From IMG/VR virus record IMGVR_UViG_3300035698_025127, positions 1 to 64,000 of that record: a DNA stretch of 64,000 nucleotides; one strand, written 5' to 3'. The notes beneath the pieces were generated by a model. That model was not told where the DNA came from and ran no database searches. It worked only from the letters and a program-made list of their open reading frames with translations. Each line of letters starts with the position of its first letter. The first letter of the stretch is position 1. Made by a program: the position numbers and the translations under genes. This document shows, piece by piece, positions 31,377-63,563 of the stretch. Source of the stretch: a virus.

Positions 31377-33197
31377 ATGTATAATAACAATGAACACGAA
31401 AAGATTGCTCTTAATCTGATTAAAGAATGGGCTCCATTGCTGGAAGGCCTAGAGAGCGAAGAAGAAGTAATCAACATGGCAATCATGTTGGAAAATACTT
31501 ATAACTGGCATGTAAATTCTAGTCCTGATGGACAGATGTTGCAGGAATTTACCGGTTCGAGTACTACAGGCCCTAGTGGTCAGAGCCCTCAAATCGCAAC
31601 CTTCAAGCATTATCTGATGCCACTTATTCGCAGAATGTATCCGGCATTGATTACCCCTACTCTAGTTGGTGTAACTCCAATGACAAGCCCGGCTACTCAG
31701 GTATTCTATCTGAAGTATTTCTACAATGGAATGGTAAATCAGCAAGATCCATGGGGAACTACTCCTGCTGCTAAAGGCCGTACAACTGCAGGTACCGAAT
31801 ATGCCAACTTTATTGGTGATACATGGAATGTTGATCCATATTACTCAATGCAGACAGTATATCGCGAGCCGCTTTCAACTGGCGGTGGAACTATTGGTGC
31901 AGGACTTGACTTTAGTGGTGCCCCTGATACTGGAACTCACGTTGCCGTACAAGCTGCATCTCCAATTTTTGATAGTAGCACAAAGGTTTATCTGATTGCA
32001 ACTGACGCTGCAACTCATGCTGCTTCTACAAAAGTTGCTCTTATCGAAGTTTCGGGTTTTGCTAATGGTACTACAACCGGCACTTTGGCAGTTTCACAAA
32101 TTGCAACCCTAGCAGGTTCGGACGCTTTCGATAATGCCGTAACTGGTGGTATTACTGCTGCAACTGGCACATTCTCCATGACTGTTAGCAATATTGGTAA
32201 TTATGATTTTATTCTGTCAAATACAGAATCACTAAATGTTACCACTCATAACGGCCTAAATACTTTGACATACGACTTCAATATGGAAAATAATCCTCGT
32301 ATGCCTGAAATCTCACTGGAAATCGCCAGCACCACAGTGAACGTGGAAACACGTAAGCTGCGTACTGTATGGTCAATCGAAAGTGCTCAGGATATGCGTG
32401 CGATGCATCATATTGATGCTGAAAAAGAATTGGTTTCACTGCTTTCAAGCGAAATTGCAGCTGAAATTGACCGTGAAACTATTAATAACTTAATCACTAA
32501 TAGCGGTCATCGTCGTAATTACGATTACAATAATCCGTTTATTGTGGGTGGTTTTGCCGTTGGTGGTGGAACTGGCCTGCTTAACTGGAATCAGTCAGCT
32601 TCTCTGCCTGCAGCCGGTGGAAATCCATGGTTCCCGGTTGGTGGTTCTGGTAATCTGCGCGACAGAAATGAAGCTCTTATGTATCAAATTCTTGAAATGT
32701 CTAATGATATTTATCGTCAGACACTTCGTGGCGCAGCTAACTTCATTATCACTTCGCCGGAAATTGCTTCTAAGCTGGAGCAACTGAGTGAATTCGAAGC
32801 AACTCAGAATAGTGTGATGGATTATTCTCTGGGTATCCAGCAAGCTGGTGTTATTCAGGGTAAATATCGCCTTATTAAGGATCCTCTATTCCCGAGTGAT
32901 CTGATTCTGTTAGGTTATAAGGGTGCTAACAATATGGATGCTGGTTACCACTATTGTCCATATGTACCTCTACAGTTAACCCCAACCATGATGGATACTC
33001 GTTCAACAAACGCAGTGAAAGCCATTATGACAAGATATGGTAAATTTATGCCTGAGAATGGTAGTAGATTCTACGGTATCATCAAGGTTAGCAACTTAAC
33101 CGCACAGGGTAGCGCAACACCTTCAGGATTCCCAATTCAGACTAGCACCAGCATTTCTGGTAGTAATCTGATTGACGGCGACTCTGATCTAGTTTAA
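31377..33197 (+). CDS. Major capsid protein (gp23-like)
   Basis: EWAPLLE, LIRRMYP, VGVTPMTSP, TRKLRTVWSIE.AQD, EIAAEIDRE, DAGYHYCPYVPL, IMTRYG. Confidence 0.97.
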   Translation: MYNNNEHEKIALNLIKEWAPLLEGLESEEEVINMAIMLENTYNWHVNSSPDGQMLQEFTGSSTTGPSGQSPQIATFKHYLMPLIRRMYPALITPTLVGVTPMTSPATQVFYLKYFYNGMVNQQDPWGTTPAAKGRTTAGTEYANFIGDTWNVDPYYSMQTVYREPLSTGGGTIGAGLDFSGAPDTGTHVAVQAASPIFDSSTKVYLIATDAATHAASTKVALIEVSGFANGTTTGTLAVSQIATLAGSDAFDNAVTGGITAATGTFSMTVSNIGNYDFILSNTESLNVTTHNGLNTLTYDFNMENNPRMPEISLEIASTTVNVETRKLRTVWSIESAQDMRAMHHIDAEKELVSLLSSEIAAEIDRETINNLITNSGHRRNYDYNNPFIVGGFAVGGGTGLLNWNQSASLPAAGGNPWFPVGGSGNLRDRNEALMYQILEMSNDIYRQTLRGAANFIITSPEIASKLEQLSEFEATQNSVMDYSLGIQQAGVIQGKYRLIKDPLFPSDLILLGYKGANNMDAGYHYCPYVPLQLTPTMMDTRSTNAVKAIMTRYGKFMPENGSRFYGIIKVSNLTAQGSATPSGFPIQTSTSISGSNLIDGDSDLV

Positions 33198-33203
33198 ACC
33201 CTT

Positions 33204-33240
33204 AGTATGGAGGGGAAATCCCCCTCCATACTTTCCTTTT
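33204..33240 (+). terminator. Intrinsic terminator after capsid gene
   Basis: AGTATGGAGGGG-aaatc-CCCCTCCATACT then TTCCTTTT. Confidence 0.85.
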
Positions 33241-33301
33241 AATACTGATAACTTGTGAAATAGTCAAGAGTACACTAAAGAACGATAAAGAAGAGGTTAC
33301 A

Positions 33302-42800: not shown

Positions 42801-44568
42801 TGCTCGTGCAAAACTCATTAATAGTACGCTAAATGGTTTTGCCACAGCAGTAAGCAATAAGATTGTATTAACAAGTCCTACAAAAGGCGTTTCAAGTCAG
42901 CTTCGCGGAGTTATTGATAATACCGCATTAGATTTTTCTGCTATTGTTAGTACACCTGCAACTGGTAGTGGTTATCCCAATCTATCCTTTAAGGTGGATG
43001 GCGGGACTACAAATACTATTGATTTTACTGACTATGCAGGTATTTTGATTGCAGATCAAAGTGCGGCTACTGCTGATGAAGTCGTTGCTTCCATTCTCAG
43101 AGGAACATCTCTAAGTAGCAGTCTTGTCTATACAGACGGCGTTGGTGTTGCAACTACAGTAAATGTCAAGAGTCTTGTTACCGGCACAAGTGGTACCGTG
43201 GAAATTCTGACAGCTAATCAGGCACTGGGTGACGAGTTTGGTATTCAAACTGTTTATACTGGGACCCAAACTGAAGTTGCTGCCGGCGTTGCTTTTGCAG
43301 TAAGTCCTGGTACTTGGGCAAATGCTGACGAGGATGCTCTGAAAATTAAATTTACTGACGAAAATCCGCTGTTCTTTGCGCCTAATACTTCTCGTGTAGA
43401 TATTTATAGTGGTTCTACTATTTTAGCATCATATCGCGAAGTTTCTCCTGATCCTGATGCTGATGGCAGCCATGGAACAACCGGAGAGGGAACATTCATT
43501 GAGGACGAACTTGGTAATAGCAATGACGTTGCCAACGGAACTAATCCTAATCCATATTTCGCGTTTGACCTTGACGAAGATTTAACTACAGACGTCATTG
43601 ATTATAATGGTGGAAAATTTAAGTCTGGAACTTATTCGTTAAGTGGCGGAGCTGATGGTATCAATGAATTAACTGGAAGTGATTTTGTTGGTGTTTCTTA
43701 TGATTCCACATATGGTGGACCTACAGGAATTCAGAATTTTGCTGATAAGCATTCATCATTTATTAACTTCCTGGTTGCCCCAGGCCGTTCAGATAGTGCT
43801 GTTATTCAGTCATTATTCTCTGTAGCTGAAGAACGCGGCGATTGTTTGGCCCTTGTGGATCCGCCTATCTCTCTGAGACCAGAACAAGTAGTGGATTGGC
43901 ACAATGGCCTAGGTTATGGTAATAGTGTGGCATTTAACACAAGTTACGCAGCATTATACGGTACTTGGTTCTATCATAGTGATCCGTATAATAACACGAA
44001 TATTTATTTACCACCTAGTGCATATCTGCTAAAGCAGTATGCATATAGCGATTCCATTTCGGAACCATGGTTTGCAGTAGCAGGTGATACGCGCGGTAAA
44101 GTTACCGGTGCTATTGGGGTTGAATATTCACCAAACGAGGGTGAACGCGACTTAATGTACGGCAATGGAAATGCAGTGAATCCGATTGTTAATTTCGTAC
44201 AAAGCGGAATTAAAATCTGGGGCCAGAAAACCCTTTCACGCACAGAGTCTTCATTGAATCGTATCAATGTGAGGCGTTTATTCTTGTTTGCTCGTAGAAC
44301 CGTAGAATTAGCCTCACAAGTTATATTGTTTGAACCTAATGATGCGTTGACCCGTAAGAAATTGGTGGAAATAATTGAAGGTGCTATGTCCGATATTCTA
44401 TCAAGACGCGGTATTACAAGATTCCAGGTTGAAGACAAGACTGATGCTTTCCTGATTAATCAGAATAGAATCAAGATTGTTGTGTTTGTTGAACCACAAC
44501 AAACTGCTGAATTCATTGAGATTCCGTTTATTGTAACCGGTAGCGGACAAGCATTTATCGAAGGTTAA
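39856..44568 (+). CDS. Tail sheath protein (gp18-like) with ~1000-aa insertion
   Basis: LSPTVVTSETDLS, GIVGAASKG; C-terminal ERGDCLALVD, PWFAVAG.TRG, IWGQKT, RINVRRL, FEPND. Confidence 0.95.
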   Translation: MTTLLSPTVVTSETDLSFVAQSISTSIAGIVGAASKGAVNKRIYLSSQDDVIIKLGKPLLTDYGVQTASLFMKQSSNGWYNRIASLRGNDPVATANTDTRALLTQTSLTAFVAPSDIIALAGGSSQNLRLRFDDTNDITITFTTAIVTSLVRSTMLDTMIALTGWLDGVLSLNGTAEPRYGFTGYTQLGDGSYVLTIQSELKSGLSKIEVMVPTGTDAASYFGWTSGVTSETGTRSIVLNTNLTSAVVTSLAQGVSGYNLGTSATSTSVNSATYNLGVLADGSLDVNNMGASPNAYSFVSVLESNTTTTMNLDSDGIHAQAQAAPYAFNPVVQIVVDGYTTSIEIPLTTWTIGAITNANMQDFATAINTATPSGLGDIAFYNTATKKMYLQSPGKSVGYTYISVPLEQSDTVAGNAAMAIRAMNFLGFDFQDVKVQNQITIETETSSETISFDYTTVHSYGLSPASLTTAQVVSLINAQFGSTIASIDSGLNISLANDYRGIDGFVKASGYQTSKLAIDSTAFDYTSSWYLPSSSPIRLIGAETATAAGLNNTYLKCSFGTDWAIVRINNTTYASDPVAIGSAKLDVEATSFAATPTQINAFKIALAAVLFGHVISSPGDGFVIGEWTVGTLVAAGTELRVYNGGGLTAGRVRVVDSNDNTATTYPASHEGNISYVVTALPAPDTTTVTLRDAGGTNVLTVTSLHDDRELHLYVDNTPALTFAGKTMTGFASSGSYATWLQKSSNTVTGDETAELTIGAGGDLSSVGQLSVSTTDASWALVLDLLFDDGAGTDYSALVAVVPSGTTAFTTSIKGGHSIAVAECPVDVITLAQGNGYDVTWTAGTGSYAYVNTATGTLDFALDALKLNGQDLPSAGAGGKAKGYLIGNADIEYIFRPSTVTPGAYAAQWQNGRITTSRVAYNDITSTFVATARSFFPNDDWGGGYNRFAVVVDDDYTVDIDFNDYTFVDQSAATASETADALNARAKLINSTLNGFATAVSNKIVLTSPTKGVSSQLRGVIDNTALDFSAIVSTPATGSGYPNLSFKVDGGTTNTIDFTDYAGILIADQSAATADEVVASILRGTSLSSSLVYTDGVGVATTVNVKSLVTGTSGTVEILTANQALGDEFGIQTVYTGTQTEVAAGVAFAVSPGTWANADEDALKIKFTDENPLFFAPNTSRVDIYSGSTILASYREVSPDPDADGSHGTTGEGTFIEDELGNSNDVANGTNPNPYFAFDLDEDLTTDVIDYNGGKFKSGTYSLSGGADGINELTGSDFVGVSYDSTYGGPTGIQNFADKHSSFINFLVAPGRSDSAVIQSLFSVAEERGDCLALVDPPISLRPEQVVDWHNGLGYGNSVAFNTSYAALYGTWFYHSDPYNNTNIYLPPSAYLLKQYAYSDSISEPWFAVAGDTRGKVTGAIGVEYSPNEGERDLMYGNGNAVNPIVNFVQSGIKIWGQKTLSRTESSLNRINVRRLFLFARRTVELASQVILFEPNDALTRKKLVEIIEGAMSDILSRRGITRFQVEDKTDAFLINQNRIKIVVFVEPQQTAEFIEIPFIVTGSGQAFIEG

Positions 44569-44580
44569 GGAGAATAAAAC

Positions 44581-45270
44581 ATGGGAATTTTAGGAATAGT
44601 TGGCAATTCGCGAATTGGCAATGAAGTTGATGGCATGGGAAACTATGACGTTAAACGAAATAATATGTGGGAAATGAAACTGGCCCGTTCGTTTGGCTCA
44701 GATGATTTTCGCAATTCCTTTACTCTACAGATGAATAAGGCTGCAAGACCTAATTTCACTTTGGGCGAAGTCGAATTACAAAGGGGTAACGAACGTTGGT
44801 ACGTTGCCTCTAAACCAGTCGCACAGGATTTGGCAGTTTCGTTTTATGACGCTTTACCATCTCAGGGTGTAAGTTATACTTATCAGCGTGAAGGCGTACA
44901 AAGTCCACACCCGGCTGGTAATCCTGATATGCGTAGTGCATCGCAAATATTGTATAACTGGTATTTACTAATATATAATCCGTCTTCTGGGTATATGGGA
45001 TTAGCAAGTGAATATCAAACTAATGCATATATTACGTTATATTCAGGTAGCGGTGAACCTATCGAACGTTGGATGTATCTTGGTTTATGGCCAAGAGAAG
45101 TAAATATGGGCGATTTAGACCATGCCACTGAAGGCGATCCTCTAACAATCGAAGCGACTTTTAGATTTAATAAAGTCTATCGTATTGACCCAGGTACAAC
45201 AGCAGAACCTACAGATGGTGATGCTCAGTTGTTACCAGAAACAGCAGAGAGTTCTTTTAATATCCTCTAA
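44581..45270 (+). CDS. Tail tube protein (gp19-like)
   Basis: KRNNMW, AARP.F...E, W...IYNP.SG.MGLA.EY, W...G.WP..V.MGDLD. Confidence 0.9.
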   Translation: MGILGIVGNSRIGNEVDGMGNYDVKRNNMWEMKLARSFGSDDFRNSFTLQMNKAARPNFTLGEVELQRGNERWYVASKPVAQDLAVSFYDALPSQGVSYTYQREGVQSPHPAGNPDMRSASQILYNWYLLIYNPSSGYMGLASEYQTNAYITLYSGSGEPIERWMYLGLWPREVNMGDLDHATEGDPLTIEATFRFNKVYRIDPGTTAEPTDGDAQLLPETAESSFNIL

Positions 45271-45279
45271 TAACTAATT

Positions 45280-45321
45280 AAGCACAGCACTTAGAAAAAG
45301 TTTAAGTGCTGTGCTTTTCTT
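45280..45321 (+). terminator. Intrinsic terminator after tail tube
   Basis: AAGCACAGCACTTAGA-aaaag-TTTAAGTGCTGTGCTT then TTCTT. Confidence 0.85.
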
Positions 45322-45339
45322 TGAAACGCGAGTAACAAA

Positions 45340-45639
45340 ATGTCAAAAATAACAGAATTTAGTACATTTTCAGAAAACAAAATTGACGCAAAGACAATTA
45401 GGGCAGTCGGCAATAAGTTGGGTATTAATTGGAATAAAATCCCATTTTCAGAATTTGAAGCGGGATATTATGTAGAATTAGAACACGGATTACAAGACCC
45501 CGAAACAAATGCAACAAATGACGATCCTGTTATGACAGCCAAAATTGCATGGGTTCATCTAAAGGAATTTTCAGACTATTATACTCGTCTCAAGAAAATG
45601 GAACGAGAAGGCAAGGAACAAAAAAATAGGGAACATTAA
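45340..45639 (+). CDS. DUF5661-family protein
   Basis: GYYVELEH...TNDDP..TAKIAWVHLKEFSDYYTRLKKME. Confidence 0.75.
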   Translation: MSKITEFSTFSENKIDAKTIRAVGNKLGINWNKIPFSEFEAGYYVELEHGLQDPETNATNDDPVMTAKIAWVHLKEFSDYYTRLKKMEREGKEQKNREH

Positions 45640-46159
45640 GAATTTTATTAGTGATATAATTAGTGAAGGCAAAAAACCTCGAAAATTTGATGTTGGTGAT
45701 ATTGTTAGAATTAAATTATATGATGATGGCCCACTATCAAAACAACCGCTAGGCAAAGTTTTTAGTATAGTCGGCTATGATAATTATACCGGAAAATGGA
45801 AATATAAAGTAAAAGAACAGGGATCCGGAGTACGTAAAACCTGGTCTGAAAACAATTTAATTTTAGTAAAGAAAGTCAAAGAGGGTGTCAATAAAGTAGC
45901 CGCCCCTAAAGATAAAATCACAAAACAAGTTAAAGATTTAAGTACAAGTTTAGATTATTTTATAAAAAACGAGTTAGTAAAAAATGCAGGCAATCCTTCA
46001 AAATATTATGCAAATATAGCCGATATTTTGGGTATTTTTGTACGTATATTAAAAATAACTAAAGACACAGATATCATAAAACATATTGAAAGTACAATAA
46101 AAATTTTACAAAATCGTAGCGCTTCATATCGCAATCATACTGATACATGGGAATGGTAA
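45626..46159 (+). CDS. Open frame lacking a canonical start (ATA start or +1 frameshift fusion to DUF5661 gene); SH3/KOW-like segment
   Basis: Frame open 45563-46159; RKFDVGDIVRIK...YKVKE...WSENNLILV; AAGGA 8 nt before ATA 45626. Confidence 0.6.
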   Translation: MGNIKNFISDIISEGKKPRKFDVGDIVRIKLYDDGPLSKQPLGKVFSIVGYDNYTGKWKYKVKEQGSGVRKTWSENNLILVKKVKEGVNKVAAPKDKITKQVKDLSTSLDYFIKNELVKNAGNPSKYYANIADILGIFVRILKITKDTDIIKHIESTIKILQNRSASYRNHTDTWEW

Positions 46160-46162
46160 AAC

Positions 46163-46191
46163 TTGACAAATATCTAAAAGTATGTTATAGT
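46163..46191 (+). promoter_or_regulatory. sigma70-type promoter TTGACA-17nt-TATAGT, extended -10
   Basis: TTGACA 46163-46168, TG 46183-84, TATAGT 46186-46191. Confidence 0.85.
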
Positions 46192-46197
46192 TCTATT

Positions 46198-46482
46198 TAG
46201 GCAACTGTCTTGTTTAAATTTGTTCCTTGTCAGCGATAAGGAGCCTACAAAGGTTTTTCGGTGTACCCGCCCAGCGAAACATCGGTTTTTGTTTTATCAT
46301 GGGTTCGCCAACTTTTCCGTTGTGATAAAATGTAAGTGTCAAAAGGCGTATAACGACACATTTCCTATGTACCACGATGTACAAAAGGAAACAGCCTCGT
46401 CATCGGCGGGGCCAGCCCCACCACGGATAGTATCTGTGGCCCTACCCCCCTTCGTTCGAAAGTTGGGGGGTTTCTTTTTTTC
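46198..46482 (+). ncRNA. Uncharacterised multi-hairpin non-coding RNA (~285 nt)
   Basis: Own promoter and terminator; at least seven consecutive stem-loops, several with G-U pairs on + strand; no RBS-supported ORF. Confidence 0.7.
46444..46482 (+). terminator. Intrinsic terminator of the ncRNA
   Basis: ACCCCCC...GGGGGGT then TTCTTTTTTT. Confidence 0.85.
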
Positions 46483-46511
46483 TTGACAAAACGGCCGTCT
46501 TGTGTTACTAT
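46483..46511 (+). promoter_or_regulatory. sigma70-type promoter TTGACA-17nt-TACTAT, extended -10
   Basis: TTGACA 46483-88, TG 46503-04, TACTAT 46506-11; AAGGAG RBS follows. Confidence 0.8.
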
Positions 46512-46532
46512 ACAACCATAAGGAGATTAGAT

Positions 46533-46994
46533 ATGATTTATTTTGTAATGTTTGTCGTTGCGGCCACGGTACACTTTATAGTAGACTTTTTGTTTCAGAC
46601 ACACGAAACGGCAGTCAACAAGAAACAAAATAATTCGGTGTTATTCAGACATTGCTCATGGTATGCGGTTTGGGTTAGCTTGGCATTTAGTGCGGCCCTT
46701 TTTAAGTTTGGCAATTTATATTATACCGTTGGAGTGGCAGCAGTTTTCGGAGCCCTTTTGATATCCCATTATTACATTGACAACGGGTTTTTAATGATCC
46801 TGTGGGCAAAATATATCCATAAAAATCCACGCTTTGAGGGTGTAAAAAGTATGGATGAAGGTAATAAGGCATTATTCGAAGACTGTCTCGAAAATCCGTT
46901 TAGACCTACAATTTATATCGCCGTAGACCAGATTATGCATATTAGTGTAATCGCAATTATTTCTTTAGTTATATGGGGTATTGCAAATGTCTAA
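46533..46994 (+). CDS. DUF3307-family membrane protein
   Basis: HFIVDFLFQT..KK..LFRH..SHYYID..DQIMH; start moved to ATG 46533 after AAGGAG. Confidence 0.8.
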   Translation: MIYFVMFVVAATVHFIVDFLFQTHETAVNKKQNNSVLFRHCSWYAVWVSLAFSAALFKFGNLYYTVGVAAVFGALLISHYYIDNGFLMILWAKYIHKNPRFEGVKSMDEGNKALFEDCLENPFRPTIYIAVDQIMHISVIAIISLVIWGIANV

Positions 46995-47448
46995 GGCAGT
47001 GGTAAATGTTGAAGGCAATCTTCAGACAATAGTTCTTCTTGTGCACTTATTGGAATTTTATACTATTGATAATATTATTCCGATAAGAATACCGCAAAGA
47101 AAACGGGAATCAATGTATCTTCAATGGCGGATTTTAGAATCGTTTGGCATTGAAAGCAATGACAAGATTTTGTATATTCGCGATACGATTGACGCATATC
47201 TTAAAGAAAATGAAGATATTGTTACTCCGTTCGATGAGAAACGGCTTGAAACGTTCACTAAAAACGTGACTACAGCGGCTTTGGAAGACATAGCATTGTG
47301 TGAGGACGCAGACATGTATACAGTCGATAATACTGAAATTTTTGGCAGTATGACAGCTAATGAAATAACTGATGAAATGGCAATAAAATATTGTAAAGAC
47401 AAAGTTCCCGAAAAATTAATTACAAAAATTATGGGAGAACCAAAATGA
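46987..47448 (+). CDS. Hypothetical protein with degenerate QueC/PP-loop-like N-terminus
   Basis: MSKAVVNVEGNLQTIVLL...PQRKRE...ILESFGI resembles KAVVLxSGGLDS...GQRH..E...A..LG. Confidence 0.45.
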   Translation: MSKAVVNVEGNLQTIVLLVHLLEFYTIDNIIPIRIPQRKRESMYLQWRILESFGIESNDKILYIRDTIDAYLKENEDIVTPFDEKRLETFTKNVTTAALEDIALCEDADMYTVDNTEIFGSMTANEITDEMAIKYCKDKVPEKLITKIMGEPK

Positions 47449-47837
47449 TGGATAAACTTGAAAGTCTTTTAGCGCAACTTGATACTATTGAAGCGAGAAT
47501 GCCGCTTATTGACACTCAGGACGAAGCACAATTTGCCTTTGACTTGACGGACAATCTCATTGAGCAAATTAAAGCTATCATGTCAGGCAAAAATTACTTT
47601 TACGGTAAAATTACAAACAAGACCGATAAGGAATTTGATGCATCCGGTTTCCCGAGTGATGTTGTAAAATGTATTATTGACCCCATGGAGACATATTATT
47701 TCCCGTTTCCCAATTCCGATACTCAAACACTTATTGATACTGCCCGTGGCTATCGTAAACACGGATTTACATGCGAAAAATATACCGGGCGATTTGGTGA
47801 AAACTATTTTATTATAGAATTCGTTGTAAATTCGTAG
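47445..47837 (+). CDS. Hypothetical protein
   Basis: 130 aa, GGAG RBS. Confidence 0.6.
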   Translation: MMDKLESLLAQLDTIEARMPLIDTQDEAQFAFDLTDNLIEQIKAIMSGKNYFYGKITNKTDKEFDASGFPSDVVKCIIDPMETYYFPFPNSDTQTLIDTARGYRKHGFTCEKYTGRFGENYFIIEFVVNS

Positions 47838-48460
47838 TTCTCGGCCATAATAGGATCGTTAATGGCCTCCACAATAGGCTTTAAACGAGCCACGATTGCC
47901 TGTAAGGCACTTTTCTGTCTATCAGTAGGTATTCGGCCTAATTGGTACCAGTCTTTGATCCTACCGGTAATATAGATGATATGTTGGTTCGCGTAAATAT
48001 GTTTGTTCATGAGCATTAGGAATCTATATAGCAGGATAATCGAAGCAATAGACTCATTAGATGCGTTTTTCAAGGTAAAGGTGTCTTCATTTAGGATATC
48101 AATTAATTCCTGCTCAATAACAAAGTCATCAATTCTGATACGACTTTTCTTGACAGTTTTAATTTTCTTTACAATACCCCCGCATTCTAATATCGAAGTG
48201 CCGTCTTTTGTATATTCATTTAGGGTAATTAAGGCACGTTTTAGTGTATTATTATTTTTGCACCTTGCCTTTTTGTCGCCATATAAAATAGTATACGAAT
48301 AACTTTTAAGATCGAGCTTAATGTCAAATTCTATAGACCCCGCAACAGAAAAGAGAACCTGAAACTTGTCAGACTGTATTTCAACACTTACAGATACGTT
48401 ATCAAAAATCTTGTTTATGTACTGTACTACTATTTTATATTGCCTAGGCAGTTTTGTCAT
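47804..48460 (-). CDS. Hypothetical protein
   Basis: 218 aa, GGAGG RBS on minus strand. Confidence 0.65.
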   Translation of the reverse strand: MTKLPRQYKIVVQYINKIFDNVSVSVEIQSDKFQVLFSVAGSIEFDIKLDLKSYSYTILYGDKKARCKNNNTLKRALITLNEYTKDGTSILECGGIVKKIKTVKKSRIRIDDFVIEQELIDILNEDTFTLKNASNESIASIILLYRFLMLMNKHIYANQHIIYITGRIKDWYQLGRIPTDRQKSALQAIVARLKPIVEAINDPIMAENYEFTTNSIIK

Positions 48461-48725
48461 TGTTACCTCCCATCAAGTATTTGCTATACGATTCTATTTC
48501 GGCCCGCTTTTCGGGTGTAAAACTGTCAATATCATAAATATTTATTAGTGTTTCAAATATGATAGCGTCTTTTTCTGGCGATTCTGGCATTTTTCTTGTC
48601 AATAAGTATATAGTGTTTATCTGGTTTAGTAGCGCGAATTCATTATTAACAACTTTATTCTCTATATATAGTAGTGTTATAAGCCGTTTTGCAATGTTTA
48701 CGATTGAATGTTGTATGTATGTCAT
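48444..48725 (-). CDS. Hypothetical protein
   Basis: 93 aa, GAAGG upstream, overlaps next minus-strand gene. Confidence 0.55.
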   Translation of the reverse strand: MTYIQHSIVNIAKRLITLLYIENKVVNNEFALLNQINTIYLLTRKMPESPEKDAIIFETLINIYDIDSFTPEKRAEIESYSKYLMGGNNDKTA

Positions 48726-48802
48726 GAGACCTTCTTTCTGTTTTCTATAAATAACGTACGATAACTTATGAATTCGATAAATTTGACAAGGAATAGAAAA
48801 TA

Positions 48803-50275
48803 ATGAATGTAAAGCTAATTAAGACACGCCCGAATATTGCAACAATAGCGTCAGCAAAAACATGTTATAACGGTATGATTTACCCAAACAAGATTAAAAA
48901 TTCTGCTAAAACTGATAAATTCGTTGTTTCTTTGCTAAATAGTGGACACCATACGACATTTCAGCATAGCGACCATTATTTTACATTTGCGCTTGAAGGG
49001 ATAAGTAGATATGCTGTATGGTCATTTTTCCATAATTTCGAATACTATAATTCAAGTCAGGAAAGCCAGCGTTATGTATCCATGGCACCGGAAAACAATT
49101 ATGTACCAGAAGGATTAACAAATACACAAAGAAGAATCTGGGACGCAGCACTTGCTGACTCTTTTATTGCATATACAGAATTGACTCGTCTATGTACTGA
49201 CAAAACAAAACAATTATATAGTAAGACTTTTCCGAATAAAGATCAGAAAATTGTTGAAGATAAAGCACACAAAATGGCAATTGAAAACGCTCGGTATATT
49301 TTGCCACAGGCTGTTACAACGTCCATGTATTATACGATAAATTTAGCTACTCTTTTGCGTATGCGCGCAGTAGCTAATACATATGACTGTAAATGGGAAA
49401 TTATACCTATTATAGAAAAAATGTGTGAAGCTGTAATCGCATTTGACGAGAAACTAGCAGTTCTTTTTGGACGTGTAGAAATCGGAGCTTTTTTTGCAGA
49501 CTACGAATATAACAATATAAATGCCAAGCTATTCAAGAAAAATTTCGATGCTCAATTTAATGATAACTACGGCAATGAATTCCAACACTCGAAACTTATC
49601 AGCCATAATGCTTTACCGGCATCGCTAAATATTTTTGATGAAATCTTCGGCATTAAATACGGCTATTCAGAAGTAAAAGATTTATCTCTAAATGTTGACA
49701 ATATGCTTACTGAATCTCGTTTGGGCAGCTTATTAGTATTTACATTCGCAAACCGAAATTCATTATCATGTGATTCTCAAATGCAGCGACATCGCACGAT
49801 AAGTAAAGCAAAGACATTTTTGCCGGATCAAATAGTTACAGATGATATTGATTATGTAGTGCCTATAGTGATCGGGTCAAGAAAAACACTAATAAGTCGA
49901 TATAATAGATTTATGGACAATCAATTGACAAACTATAGATATGCAATTAAAGAAGGGATTGCCCCAGAAATTGCTGCTTACCTTCTTCCTAATGCAACAA
50001 TGACTCGGTCTTTTTCGACAGTAGATTTAAATGGATTTAAGAATCAGGCTAATTTGCGTTTGTGTTTTAATGCACAAAAAGAAATATGGGATTTGACAGC
50101 AGAACAGGCAAAACAAATAAGTAAAGTGGTCCCTGAAATATCACGTGTTTTGCATCCTAAATGCAAGTTAAGAAAAGAAAGCGGTATAACACCGGTATGT
50201 ACAGAAGGTTCAAGATTTTGTGGAACACAGACCTGGAACATAGACGACTTTTACAATCATGAACGGGAGTTTTAA
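48803..50275 (+). CDS. thyX: FAD-dependent thymidylate synthase, tandem double-domain ThyX
   Basis: SGHHTTFQH, GISR, SQESQRY, ENARYILP; second domain QMQRHRT, YLLPNA, LRLCFNAQKEI. Confidence 0.9.
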   Translation: MNVKLIKTRPNIATIASAKTCYNGMIYPNKIKNSAKTDKFVVSLLNSGHHTTFQHSDHYFTFALEGISRYAVWSFFHNFEYYNSSQESQRYVSMAPENNYVPEGLTNTQRRIWDAALADSFIAYTELTRLCTDKTKQLYSKTFPNKDQKIVEDKAHKMAIENARYILPQAVTTSMYYTINLATLLRMRAVANTYDCKWEIIPIIEKMCEAVIAFDEKLAVLFGRVEIGAFFADYEYNNINAKLFKKNFDAQFNDNYGNEFQHSKLISHNALPASLNIFDEIFGIKYGYSEVKDLSLNVDNMLTESRLGSLLVFTFANRNSLSCDSQMQRHRTISKAKTFLPDQIVTDDIDYVVPIVIGSRKTLISRYNRFMDNQLTNYRYAIKEGIAPEIAAYLLPNATMTRSFSTVDLNGFKNQANLRLCFNAQKEIWDLTAEQAKQISKVVPEISRVLHPKCKLRKESGITPVCTEGSRFCGTQTWNIDDFYNHEREF

Positions 50276-54273: not shown

Positions 54274-54853
54274 CGAGACATACAAAAGGACTATGTTTTG
54301 TACAGATCAAGACGAACTCCATATGATAATGGAATCATTAATGGATTTAGCAGAAGAAAATGCGGACAACGACTTATATATTACTGAAATATATAAAGCA
54401 GTTTTAAATTTGCTAAATAATGAATGGTTAAAGCCGCAAGACTTTTTACACATTGTCGGTACACTCCCTACTATTTTATATGATGCATTAGAACAGGATA
54501 TACAGTCTCTTGAGGTCATTAAAGTGGTATTTGAGCATTATCCGCAATACTTATTTAACAATGAATATGAGTTAAATAGTTCTTTATTGTATTTAATGAT
54601 GATGTATAACTTGACAGACGAACAAAAGTATGCTATAATACGAGATAGCTTAGAAAATTATGTTAATTCGCGGCACCTTTTAGCAGTCTTCAGGAAATAT
54701 AACGAAGTACCGAGAGCACTTTACGAAAGTATTAAGGCCTTTTGTAATACTGTCCCGGACAAGAAACTAAAAAGCAAACTAATTAAGGCTTTTCGAAATG
54801 TTAATATTACAGAATGCAGAGACACGAGAGAGGATTATAAGACTTTTCATTGA
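54251..54853 (+). CDS. Hypothetical helical protein
   Basis: 200-aa ORF. Confidence 0.6.
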   Translation: MKMILLNNETYKRTMFCTDQDELHMIMESLMDLAEENADNDLYITEIYKAVLNLLNNEWLKPQDFLHIVGTLPTILYDALEQDIQSLEVIKVVFEHYPQYLFNNEYELNSSLLYLMMMYNLTDEQKYAIIRDSLENYVNSRHLLAVFRKYNEVPRALYESIKAFCNTVPDKKLKSKLIKAFRNVNITECRDTREDYKTFH

Positions 54854-62054: not shown

Positions 62055-63122
62055 ATGACTCATGGCGTAGATATCAAAAAATTACTTGCAAACGCGGAAA
62101 ACATGAAAAATGGCGGCGGGTTTAATAGTAATTTTTGGAGCCCTAAAGAGGCCAAAACAACTATTAGAATTATCCCGCCTAATCCTGAAATTCAAGGTAT
62201 GCTCCCGGGCGTGTTCTTTGTAAAACACAATGAACATAATATCAATGGCCAACGTATTGGTTGTGCTGCCGAAATTCTTCAGGAAGATTGTCCTATTTGC
62301 ACGAAACGAATCGAAATTTACCGCGAACGTAAAGGCAATCCTGCAAGCTGTACCCCCGAGAGAGAGCAGTTTCTCGCTGCAACTCACAGTTCAAGACGTT
62401 TTCTTGCCTTAGTTATTGTTAAAGGCGAAGAAGACAAGGGTGTACAAATTTGGAGTTTCGGCAAGAAAATGTTAGACAAGTTGCTTTCATTTTATGTTGA
62501 TTTCTGTGCTGATGGCGATGATGAATTGTCAGACATGGACAATGGTCGTGATATTATTATCAACAAGACGATTATTCATACTGAAAACGGAAATTTCCCC
62601 AACTATGATAATTCCATTCCGTCTCCGAAATTAACGGCAGCCGGCACCCCCGAAATGATTGCAAAATGGTGGACAGAACAACCTAAATTGTTAGAAATTG
62701 CTTCTGCAAACATTAAGTCCTATTCTGAAGTTGCGCAGATTGCAGAACAACTCATGGAATCATTTGAGAGAAAGGCCCCACAAGCTCCACAAACGCCTCA
62801 GGCGTTACAGAGCTATGCTGCCCCTACCGCTAGTACTCCTGGCACCCCGCAATCAACTGTGGGCGGCCCCCCGGAACTTAGTATTGCTGGTGTACTGGGT
62901 GAGATTGATCTATCTAGCCCCGAAGCACTCATTGCTTTTCAGGGATGGCAAAAAAATGGCAATAACGATTTACAGTTATTGTTAGAAGTTGCCAATTCTT
63001 ATCCTAAACCTGGTACAACAGCCGCAGCAGCGCCTCAAAAGCCAGCGGAAAAAGTACAGACAGAAATTTATGATGATCCCGAAGCATTGTTAGCTAAAAT
63101 TCAAAACGAATTAGATGAATAA
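62055..63122 (+). CDS. Single-stranded DNA-binding protein (gp32-like)
   Basis: FWSPK..TIRIIP, H, C..CPIC, GVQIWSFGK, GRDIII, acidic C-tail. Confidence 0.88.
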   Translation: MTHGVDIKKLLANAENMKNGGGFNSNFWSPKEAKTTIRIIPPNPEIQGMLPGVFFVKHNEHNINGQRIGCAAEILQEDCPICTKRIEIYRERKGNPASCTPEREQFLAATHSSRRFLALVIVKGEEDKGVQIWSFGKKMLDKLLSFYVDFCADGDDELSDMDNGRDIIINKTIIHTENGNFPNYDNSIPSPKLTAAGTPEMIAKWWTEQPKLLEIASANIKSYSEVAQIAEQLMESFERKAPQAPQTPQALQSYAAPTASTPGTPQSTVGGPPELSIAGVLGEIDLSSPEALIAFQGWQKNGNNDLQLLLEVANSYPKPGTTAAAAPQKPAEKVQTEIYDDPEALLAKIQNELDE

Positions 63123-63135
63123 TAAGTAAGGGAGA

Positions 63136-63166
63136 AAAGGGAGGGGTAATTCCCTCCCTTTGTTTC
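63136..63166 (+). terminator. Intrinsic terminator after SSB
   Basis: AAAGGGAGGG-gtaatt-CCCTCCCTTT GTTT. Confidence 0.75.
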
Positions 63167-63170
63167 TATT

Positions 63171-63563
63171 ATGCCAAAAAGATATTTTCAAAAATTTGCA
63201 AAGTATTATGGTAGTTTTAGAGGCGCTTACAATATAAGAAGGTCAATTACAGCTGACTTTGCCAGTGCATTCAATTTAACGCACGGCAAAGCACAGGAAA
63301 TGGTTGACTTTTTTGTTGATAAGTTGTTATCTAATCTCTATAATGGCGTTAGAATCAGGTTTGATGATGTTTTTGTTATTTATCTGGAACCATATCATAG
63401 TTATATACACAAATTCTATAATTTTCAGATCAAACAAAATGACGAGGCACATAAACCATCGCACTGGGGACTAAAGATTCACTTATCGAAACCCGGGTTC
63501 AAAAAAATTAACGATTCTATGGGCATACCAGATGAACGTGATTTTAGAAGTCCGAACGAATAG
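63171..63563 (+). CDS. Divergent HU/IHF-fold DNA-binding protein
   Basis: FASAFNLTHGKAQEMVDFFVDKLLSNLYNGVRIRF...LKIHLSK..KKIN follows HU helix-helix-sheet pattern. Confidence 0.6.
   Translation: MPKRYFQKFAKYYGSFRGAYNIRRSITADFASAFNLTHGKAQEMVDFFVDKLLSNLYNGVRIRFDDVFVIYLEPYHSYIHKFYNFQIKQNDEAHKPSHWGLKIHLSKPGFKKINDSMGIPDERDFRSPNE

What the first reader, a model, noticed from the sequence alone, without database searches (positions are those of the whole stretch)
46163..46482. Self-contained ~285-nt multi-hairpin non-coding RNA at the late/early module boundary
Seen: a near-consensus promoter (TTGACA-17-TGnTATAGT), then a stretch visibly GC-richer than its surroundings made of back-to-back stem-loops: TCCTTGTC/GATAAGGA, CGGTGT/ACATCG with inner CGC/GCG, TTTTATCA/TGATAAAA, GTGTC/GACAC, TTTCCT-TGTAC/GTACA-AGGAAA, GCCTCGTC/GGCGGGGC, CCACGGA/TCTGTGG. 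It ends in a C6/G6 terminator. The next gene has its own separate promoter, so this is not a 5' leader. Several stems contain G-U pairs on the + strand (they would be A-C on the other strand), which points to selection on RNA rather than DNA cruciforms. Inference: an early, host-RNAP-transcribed structured RNA of no family I recognise, e.g. a protein sponge or anti-defence decoy. Alternatively an R-loop origin primer as at T4 origins.
Basis: partly seen in the sequence, partly recalled or inferred. Interest (0 to 1): 0.85.

Follow-up and report, generated by a model that had tools for sequence, protein, structure and literature searches.

The report
Orphan candidate small RNA gene in phage
A salt-lake phage carries a roughly 280-base stretch that looks like a gene for a folded, non-coding RNA made early in infection, but nothing related to it could be found anywhere, so its structure and role remain untested.

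Summary
There is a near-consensus extended -10 sigma-70 promoter at 46163-46191. About 280 nt follow that are richer in G+C (0.47 against a genome mean of 0.37). Five hairpins in this stretch have pair probability of at least 0.85. It ends in a 7-bp G/C terminator hairpin plus a U-tract (46444-46482), and a second promoter for the DUF3307 gene follows directly.

The excess structure is real but modest. The MFE z-score is -3.25 against shuffles, yet only 29th of 1260 windows within this genome after correcting for G+C.

No Rfam family, tRNA or tmRNA matches. The 88-codon frame across the unit has no Shine-Dalgarno, flat codon-position G+C, no homologue and a poor fold.

The decisive tests could not be run. 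The phage is a very distant T4-like virus (capsid at most 31% identical to any deposited phage). Its flanking genes have no relatives, population copies are identical, and no RNA run holds it.

Best reading (confidence 0.45): an independent, early, host-polymerase-transcribed non-coding RNA of unknown partner, an orphan of a known kind (compare PA5oct ncRNAs, T4 RNAC/RNAD). Nothing supports the sponge, decoy or R-loop ideas. The scan had noted this same stretch in an overlapping window, not on other DNA.

The parts
46163..46191 (+). Early-type sigma-70 promoter: -35 TTGACA, 17-nt spacer with TG at 46183-46184, -10 TATAGT
   Evidence: 11 of 12 plus TG. It is a member of a class of 16 such promoters in the 119.9-kb record. 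The stretch 46157-46196 recurs, with 1 to 4 differing letters or small gaps, on other contigs with other flanks in 3 salt-lake runs.
46199..46200 (+). Inferred transcription start (a purine 8-9 nt after the -10)
   Evidence: Inference from promoter geometry read. Not measured.
46222..46244 (+). Hairpin 1: 10 bp (2 G-U), loop AGC. Its 3' arm contains AAGGAG, paired to UCCUU
   Evidence: mean pair probability 0.97.
46258..46330 (+). Central domain with two competing folds
Evidence: The MFE fold is -20.2 kcal/mol (pairs P 0.55-0.61).
46336..46359 (+). Hairpin 4: 5 bp, 14-nt loop
   Evidence: P 0.85.
46361..46391 (+). Hairpin 5: 6 + 5 bp with internal bulges, loop CACGAU
   Evidence: P 0.90 and 0.98.
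46394..46412 (+). Hairpin 6: 8 bp (2 U-G), loop AUC
   Evidence: P 0.91. It competes with GGGGCC/GGCCCC pairing, which is favoured on the - strand.
46421..46439 (+). Hairpin 7: 8 bp (1 G-U), loop AGU
   Evidence: P 0.96.
46444..46482 (+). Intrinsic terminator: ACCCCCC/GGGGGGU stem, 14-nt loop, then TTTCTTTTTTT. On the - strand no U-tract follows the stem
   Evidence: -16.1 kcal/mol, P 0.97; sequence. Not listed because of that scan's loop limit.
46483..46511 (+). Separate promoter of the DUF3307 gene (start 46533). Its spacer holds the palindrome ACAAAACGG|CCGTCTTGT
   Evidence: I17; the palindrome is unique in the record.
46220..46486 (+). 88-codon TTG-initiated open frame spanning the whole unit (rival reading, judged unlikely)

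Best explanation
This is a stand-alone gene for a non-coding RNA of about 280 nt.

Proposed mechanism:
- Host sigma-70 RNA polymerase starts at about 46199 from an early-class promoter.
- It transcribes a G+C-enriched stretch that folds into a 5' hairpin, an ill-defined central domain and four 3' hairpins.
- It stops at the intrinsic terminator at about 46478.
- Late transcripts that read out of the upstream frame (which ends at 46159) would also end at this terminator. The same RNA sequence may therefore be made early from its own promoter and late as a 3' UTR.
- The RNA would act in trans on an unknown host or phage partner.

Shown: the promoter, the terminator, the lack of coding signals and moderately above-background folding on the + strand.

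Inferred: that the unit is transcribed, that a discrete RNA accumulates, and that it has any function in trans.
For: - Promoter 11 of 12 plus TG, of the same class as 15 other sites in the record.
- Of these 16 promoters, 12 lead into a Shine-Dalgarno ORF within 18-49 nt. This one leads into 280 nt without one (sequence).
- Terminator hairpin -16.1 kcal/mol plus U-tract, one-directional. It is the only strong hairpin found directly upstream of any of the 16 promoters.
- G+C 0.467, reached by 26 of 1260 windows.
- MFE z -3.25 on + against -2.37 on -. Without the terminator, -2.56 against -1.70.
- Five hairpins with P of at least 0.85.
- The ORF88 frame: no Pfam or PHROG hit; no homologue among 5.8 billion proteins; codon score -0.05 against 0.37 +/- 0.13 for 87 long genes; codon-position G+C 0.49/0.44/0.49 against 0.45/0.35/0.31; AlphaFold2 pLDDT 52.8, mostly coil.
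- The capsid places the phage as a very distant T4-like virus. By passages read in PMC3014915, T4 makes two small RNAs of unknown role.
Against: - No transcript evidence: 0 of 24 listed runs are RNA.
- No homologue of the RNA or of its flanking genes, so there is no covariation test.
- Population copies are identical.
- Within this genome the fold is only 29th of 1260 after G+C correction, and most better windows lie in coding DNA.
- The central 70 nt has no well-defined fold.
- An open frame of 102 codons across the unit is itself unusual: 38 of 2000 shuffles reach it.
- At least one likely early gene scores about as low in codon usage (101984-102379, -0.039).
- No phage translation-start region is a better antisense target than for shuffled RNA: 53 of 60 shuffles did at least as well.
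Confidence: 0.45

Rival explanations
1. A cis-acting leader. The promoter makes a short non-coding transcript that normally stops at the terminator, and a phage factor or RNA-borne signal lets polymerase read through into the DUF3307 three-gene block. This would resemble the lambda PR'-6S RNA-tR' unit under Q, HK022 put RNA, or an attenuator or riboswitch (all recalled knowledge, from no call).
For: The architecture is promoter, about 280 nt non-coding, intrinsic terminator, then same-strand genes 46533-47837. The G-run in 46407-46411 could in principle pair with the terminator's C-run instead of hairpin 6 (read; not scored).
Against: A full promoter (10 of 12 plus TG) sits between the terminator and the gene, 21 nt before its Shine-Dalgarno-led start, so read-through is not needed. 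No known riboswitch or leader family matches even at E up to 10. No alternative antiterminator helix appears in the MFE, centroid or pair probabilities. No Q-, N- or NusG-like gene was identified next to it: Pfam and PHROGs were empty for the neighbours, and the model of the upstream 172-residue frame is of low confidence (pLDDT 49.3).
Confidence: 0.2
2. No selected RNA function. This would be a spacer or decayed early cassette between the late and early modules. The terminator insulates the late operon, the promoter is a leftover or spurious strong site, and the hairpins reflect locally high G+C.
For: Structure is only in the top 2% or so of the genome's own windows. There is no conservation evidence at all. 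The T-run after the hairpin is also a common feature upstream of this promoter class: 8 of 16 have a T-run directly before the -35.
Against: A near-perfect promoter of the phage's own early class placed 4 nt after a stop codon is unlikely to be idle. G+C enrichment in a non-coding stretch of an A+T-rich phage has no obvious neutral cause. The fold is asymmetric in favour of the transcribed strand.
Confidence: 0.2
3. A small early protein of 88 residues, translated from TTG 46220 to TGA 46486. The terminator would lie inside its 3' end.
For: The frame is open for 102 codons across the whole unit, which only 38 of 2000 dinucleotide shuffles reach. The TTG lies 28 nt after the -10, within the 18-49 nt spacing seen at 12 other promoters.
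Against: No Shine-Dalgarno motif in 46200-46219, whereas 12 of 16 sister promoters have one. The start is TTG. Codon score is -0.05, below the minimum (-0.041) of 87 long genes, and codon-position G+C is flat. No Pfam or PHROG family. No homologue. The protein-language-model recognition value is 1232, where 91 in 100 known-family proteins reach 2300 (the tool says this does not show whether a gene is real). pLDDT is 52.8 with almost no secondary structure (single-sequence models are often poor).
Confidence: 0.08
4. A DNA-level or primer element: an origin of replication where the transcript forms an R-loop primer (as at T4 oriF/oriG; recalled), or another cis-acting DNA site.
For: Position at a module boundary; G- and C-runs in the transcript.
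Against: The transcript ends at an intrinsic terminator rather than running into an A+T-rich unwinding region. Cumulative GC skew has no extremum near 46 kb in the 119.9-kb record. No iterons or direct repeats beyond chance.
Confidence: 0.04

Closest known systems
Orphan ncRNAs of the jumbo Pseudomonas phage PA5oct (ncRNA001-004, 236-619 nt)
   Same: Non-coding transcribed regions of a large virulent phage that relies on host RNA polymerase. They are similar in size, have no similarity to known sequences, and their function is unknown (passages read in PMC7318152).
   Different: Those were found by RNA-seq and lack recognised promoters. Here the promoter and terminator are clear but there is no expression data. 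No sequence similarity was tested or expected.
T4 small RNAs RNAC and RNAD
   Same: Small stable RNAs of unknown role in a T4-type phage (passage read in PMC3014915). This phage's capsid is distantly T4-like (26-31% identity).
   Different: The T4 RNAs come from the tRNA gene region. This record has no tRNA gene at all, and the RNA has its own promoter and terminator. Homology was not tested.
Bacterial sRNA genes with their own promoter that share the terminator of an upstream mRNA (3'-UTR-type sRNAs such as DapZ or MicL; recalled, from no call)
   Same: The promoter lies at the end of a coding frame, the intrinsic terminator with a long U-tract is shared, and the 5' end is unstructured (46199-46221 is mostly unpaired).
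   Different: At about 280 nt with 5 or 6 hairpins it is longer than most base-pairing sRNAs. No target stands out. The host and its chaperones are unknown.
Lambda PR'-6S RNA-tR' unit (recalled, from no call)
   Same: A constitutive promoter, a short non-coding terminated transcript, then genes on the same strand.
   Different: Here a second full promoter follows the terminator, and no antiterminator gene was recognised.

Membership tests
Independent sRNA/ncRNA gene (generic kind) | Own promoter recognised by the host polymerase | tested here: met
   Scores 11 of 12 plus TG. Same class as 15 other sites in the record. This is a sequence match only; activity was not measured.
Independent sRNA/ncRNA gene (generic kind) | Own intrinsic terminator giving a discrete 3' end | tested here: met
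   A 7-bp G/C stem (-16.1 kcal/mol, P 0.97) followed by TTTCTTTTTTT. Efficiency was not measured.
Independent sRNA/ncRNA gene (generic kind) | No translated ORF | tested here: inconclusive
   Against coding: no Shine-Dalgarno, non-gene-like codon statistics, no homologue and a poor fold. For coding: the 102-codon open frame is reached by only 38 of 2000 shuffles.
Independent sRNA/ncRNA gene (generic kind) | A discrete transcript is detected | not testable with these tools
   0 of 24 listed runs are RNA. The 4 runs laid are DNA contigs.
Structured RNA family (conserved fold) | Homologues with compensatory base changes | tested here: inconclusive
   No homologue was found by any route. Copies in 4 runs are identical.
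Any Rfam 15 family | Covariance-model score at or above the gathering threshold | tested here: not met
   0 matches at gathering in the whole window. On the element alone at E up to 10 there is only msiK on the - strand, 15.8 bits against a threshold of 33. Nothing lies inside the element.
tRNA / tmRNA | ARAGORN detection | tested here: not met
   0 genes in the window, in the whole record, and in the element at a relaxed threshold.
CsrB/RsmZ-type protein sponge | Repeated GGA motifs in hairpin loops | tested here: not met
   The loops of the 5 well-defined hairpins are AGC, AAAAGGCGUAUAAC, CACGAU, AUC and AGU. None contains GGA. No Rfam hit.
Terminator-controlled leader (riboswitch, attenuator, Q/put-type antitermination) | The terminator is the only route of control: no promoter between it and the regulated gene | tested here: not met
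   A promoter lies at 46483-46511, directly after the U-tract.
Terminator-controlled leader (riboswitch, attenuator, Q/put-type antitermination) | Known aptamer or an alternative antiterminator helix | tested here: inconclusive
   No family match. No competing helix appears in the ensemble. A weak G-run/C-run alternative can be drawn by eye.
T4-type R-loop origin | The transcript runs into an unwinding element, with origin signatures | tested here: not met
   The transcript is terminated. No skew extremum. The record is only about 55% complete, so an origin elsewhere is not excluded.
Small protein gene | Ribosome-binding site plus gene-like composition or homologues | tested here: not met

The most novel reading that the evidence does not exclude
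The RNA is the founding member of a new class of structured phage RNA. It would be made in the first minutes of infection from a host-type promoter, and its triloop hairpins (46222-46244, 46394-46412, 46421-46439) would bind and sequester a host protein or defence factor. No data here exclude this. No data support it beyond the existence of the transcription unit and its fold.
Probability: 0.1. Interest if true: 0.7.

Novelty: new member of a known kind. Interest (0 to 1): 0.3.

Why it matters
Virulent phages are known to make small non-coding RNAs, but almost none has a function. A clean case with a readable promoter and terminator would be a convenient object for study. Here the host is unknown, the phage is uncultured and has no relatives, and there is no expression or covariation evidence. 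The finding is therefore a reasonable annotation (candidate ncRNA gene) rather than a lead that opens a question. Its practical value is as a marker. If related salt-lake phages or metatranscriptomes appear, this locus is the first place to look for a conserved early RNA.

Tried and rejected
Homologue hunting, all negative:
- blastn 'distant' of 46100-46560 against 50,697 phage records.
- tblastn of the DUF3307 protein and the 172-residue upstream frame against the same records.
- Single-protein scans of viral contigs with DUF3307, tail tube and ThyX.
- Word-indexed protein searches with DUF3307 (only the identical protein), ORF88 and the 172-residue frame.
- Full HMMER search with the tail tube: 496 hits at E up to 0.001, best 50% identical. 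This led to 19 viral loci and 4 metagenome loci. tblastn of 8 window proteins against these 23 loci hit only sheath and tube, and blastn of the element hit nothing. L005 and L025 were read and are not syntenic.
- BLAST of the element against 4 of 5 related virus records found nothing; L011 is not held.
- Pattern scans gave either chance hits in G+C-rich unrelated contigs or no hit.
- The scan's own index found no look-alike outside this genome.

Expression: no RNA holder is listed among 24 runs. The laid contigs of 4 DNA runs are fragmentary and identical to the window over the element. The contig breaks there are not evidence.

Antisense idea:
- The segment 46219-46229 is perfectly complementary over 11 nt to 45612-45622, just before the A7 run and the possible start of the upstream start-less frame (I7).
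- It is one of 28 non-self matches of 11 nt or more between the element and the record.
- A duplex scan against 157 start regions was no better than shuffles: 53 of 60 shuffles were as good. The duplexes returned had long loops, so this is a crude test. I rejected it as a finding and keep it only as a lead.

Similarity between hairpins 1 and 6 (5' arms CCUUGUC and CCUCGUC): by my rough estimate, not a tool result, several such matches are expected by chance. Rejected.

Loop-loop complementarity between 46307-46317 and 46341-46348 (4 + 4 bp with a 3-nt bulge, read) could not be tested without homologues.

A crude survey of non-coding gaps was too noisy to claim that this is the largest non-coding stretch. 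I make no such claim.

The AlphaFold2 model of the 172-residue neighbour (pLDDT 49.3) was too poor to search with, so no fold search was run.

The catalogue of 8495 candidate structured RNAs from IMG/VR (PMC10690425; passages read) sits in supplementary tables that I did not open. It needs homologues, so this locus is unlikely to be in it, but I could not check.

Full report
CONTEXT. The window is the first 64 kb of a linear IMG/VR virus record of 119,932 b, estimated 55% complete. Only salt-lake metagenome runs hold it. Its major capsid protein is at most 31% identical to any of 50,697 deposited phages. The best hit is an uncultured 595-kb phage, followed by T4-type Vibrio and Aeromonas phages at 26-28%. 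It is therefore a very distant T4-like, probably large, virus.

Upstream of the finding lie these genes:
- a 1570-residue sheath;
- a tail tube (weak gp19 match, 18.9 bits, below Pfam's cut-off of 28.2);
- a 16-bp terminator at 45280-45316;
- a DUF5661 gene;
- a start-less 172-codon frame that ends at 46159.

Downstream lie a DUF3307 membrane protein (start 46533), two unknown genes, two genes on the other strand and ThyX.

THE OBSERVATION. The promoter at 46163-46191 (TTGACA, 17 nt, TATAGT with TG) is the best of 22 promoter-like sites in 44000-49000. More tellingly, it belongs to a class. A scan of the whole record finds 16 sites with a perfect -35 and a TGn extended -10, most of them between 77 and 114 kb.
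- Twelve of the 16 are followed within 18-49 nt by a Shine-Dalgarno-led ORF of at least 30 codons.
- The site at 46163 is the only one whose first such ORF (341 nt away) lies beyond a terminator and a second promoter.
- The other three exceptions are an internal promoter at 54611 (158 nt) and two sites where my simple pattern found no ORF (17692-, 82615-).
- In three other salt-lake runs the 34-40 nt promoter stretch alone recurs on contigs with entirely different flanks. This fits a promoter type shared among co-occurring phages.

G+C rises from about 0.25-0.33 to 0.40-0.51 across the element. Its G+C of 0.467 is reached by 26 of 1260 windows of the record.

THE FOLD. The 285-nt + strand folds to -90.7 kcal/mol. 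Pair probabilities give:
- five well-defined hairpins: 46222-46244, 46336-46359, 46361-46391, 46394-46412 and 46421-46439 (P 0.85-0.98);
- a terminator hairpin at 46444-46471 (P 0.97, -16.1 kcal/mol), followed by TTTCTTTTTTT;
- a central region, 46258-46330, that is ambiguous.

HOW UNUSUAL IS THE FOLD?
- Against dinucleotide shuffles the + strand has z -3.25 (1 of 200) and the - strand -2.37 (3 of 200).
- Without the terminator the values are -2.56 (1 of 200) and -1.70 (8 of 200).
- Against the phage's own sequence the signal is weaker. After regression of MFE on G+C over 1260 windows, 28 fold better on the + strand and 63 on the - strand.
- Three or more perfect short-loop stems of at least 7 bp occur in 93 of 5983 windows.

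The element is therefore in roughly the top 2% by G+C, by folding energy and by hairpin density. These measures are correlated, and there is a modest asymmetry in favour of the strand that the promoter and terminator point to. This agrees with a structured RNA but would not establish one on its own.

IS IT CODING? One frame is open for 102 codons across the whole unit, with a TTG at 46220 that gives 88 residues. Only 38 of 2000 shuffles have so long an open frame, so the rival deserved a test. Against it:
- there is no purine-rich ribosome-binding motif in 46200-46219;
- the codon score is -0.05, against 0.37 +/- 0.13 (minimum -0.041) for 87 long genes;
- G+C by codon position is flat (0.49/0.44/0.49, against 0.45/0.35/0.31);
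- there is no Pfam or PHROG family and no homologue;
- there is no Atlas look-alike;
- the AlphaFold2 model is coil-like, with pLDDT 52.8.

Two caveats apply. Some likely early genes of this phage also score near zero in codon usage (for example 101984-102379, -0.039). Single-sequence models are also often poor. I put the coding reading at about 0.08.

KNOWN FAMILIES.
- Rfam 15 gives nothing at gathering thresholds in the whole window.
- Nothing lies inside the element at E up to 10 in a 3-kb search.
- On the element alone there is only a sub-threshold msiK match on the wrong strand.
- ARAGORN finds no tRNA or tmRNA in the window, the record or the element.
- No hairpin loop carries GGA, so it does not look like a CsrA-type sponge.

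COMPARATIVE EVIDENCE.
- Neither the element nor its flanking genes has any relative in the collections searched.
- The nearest tail-tube relatives are about 50% identical. They lack the DUF5661, 172-codon and DUF3307 genes, and the element.
- Copies in four other runs are letter-identical.
- Pattern scans gave only chance hits.
- No RNA run holds the stretch.

MECHANISM. The best-supported reading is a stand-alone early non-coding RNA gene.
- Host sigma-70 polymerase would start at about 46199 and stop at about 46478.
- Nothing terminator-like lies between the stop codon at 46159 and this terminator. Late read-through transcripts would therefore carry the same sequence as a 3' UTR.
- This arrangement resembles promoter-bearing 3'-UTR sRNAs of bacteria (recalled).
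- The 5' 23 nt are mostly unpaired and the 3' end has a long U-tract, as in base-pairing sRNAs.
- However, no phage start region stands out as a target, and the host is unknown.

The main rival is a terminator-controlled leader of the lambda PR'-6S-tR' or put kind (recalled). The full promoter directly after the terminator weakens it. A non-functional spacer cannot be excluded. The R-loop origin idea has no support.

COMPARISON AND VERDICT. The closest known things are:
- the four orphan ncRNAs of jumbo phage PA5oct, 236-619 nt, with no similarity to anything and unknown function (passages read, PMC7318152);
- T4 RNAC and RNAD (passage read, PMC3014915).

phiKZ work notes that sRNAs are predicted for only a few virulent phages and that their roles are unclear (passages read, PMC8244752).

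This locus is a new, family-less member of that known kind. It is defined by sequence signals only. It is a sound annotation and a modestly interesting one. Without expression data, relatives or a host, it does not yet open a question.

Noticed in passing
window 45563-46159: The 172-codon frame after the DUF5661 gene has no ATG, GTG or TTG until 46028. It overlaps the DUF5661 stop next to an A7 run (45620-45626). It has no Pfam or PHROG family and no homologue. Its AlphaFold2 model (pLDDT 49.3) suggests a small beta-barrel plus a helical bundle. The scan already noted it (e1-6151186).
   Followed up: partly
window 46486-46503: The imperfect palindrome ACAAAACGG|CCGTCTTGT lies in the spacer of the DUF3307 promoter. 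It is unique in the record even with up to 4 mismatches. A 14-nt look-alike half lies at 46603-46616 inside the gene. It could be an operator for a dimeric repressor.
   Followed up: partly
G000:C1, promoters at 82615(-), 94342(-), 112184(+), 95868(-) and 93926(-), outside the window: Several early-class promoters are followed, about 10-15 nt after the -10, by a shared motif of the form GATTGATTGACAAnCTA. The motif contains a second TTGACA. It may be a conserved leader, an operator or a tandem promoter.
   Followed up: no
window 46157-46196, and contigs of runs X7, X8 and X14: The promoter stretch alone recurs, with 1-4 changed letters or small gaps, on other salt-lake contigs whose flanks differ on both sides. 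The promoter type is thus shared by other phages or elements in the same habitat.
   Followed up: partly
G000:C1:88595 and 89162 (- strand), outside the window: Two identical promoter-like stretches of at least 70 nt lie 567 nt apart. This is a direct duplication in the second half of the record.
   Followed up: no
window 63081-63365 (+) and 32966-33250 (-): These windows have the strongest folding-energy excess after G+C correction in the whole record (z -3.70 and -3.43). Both exceed the element studied here, and both lie in coding regions.
   Followed up: no
whole record G000: ARAGORN finds no tRNA gene in 119.9 kb. This is unusual for a large T4-like phage, although the record is only about 55% complete.
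   Followed up: partly
window 45280-45316: A very strong 16-bp terminator hairpin lies directly after the tail-tube gene. The DUF5661 gene starts only 24 nt later, with no good promoter between them.
   Followed up: no
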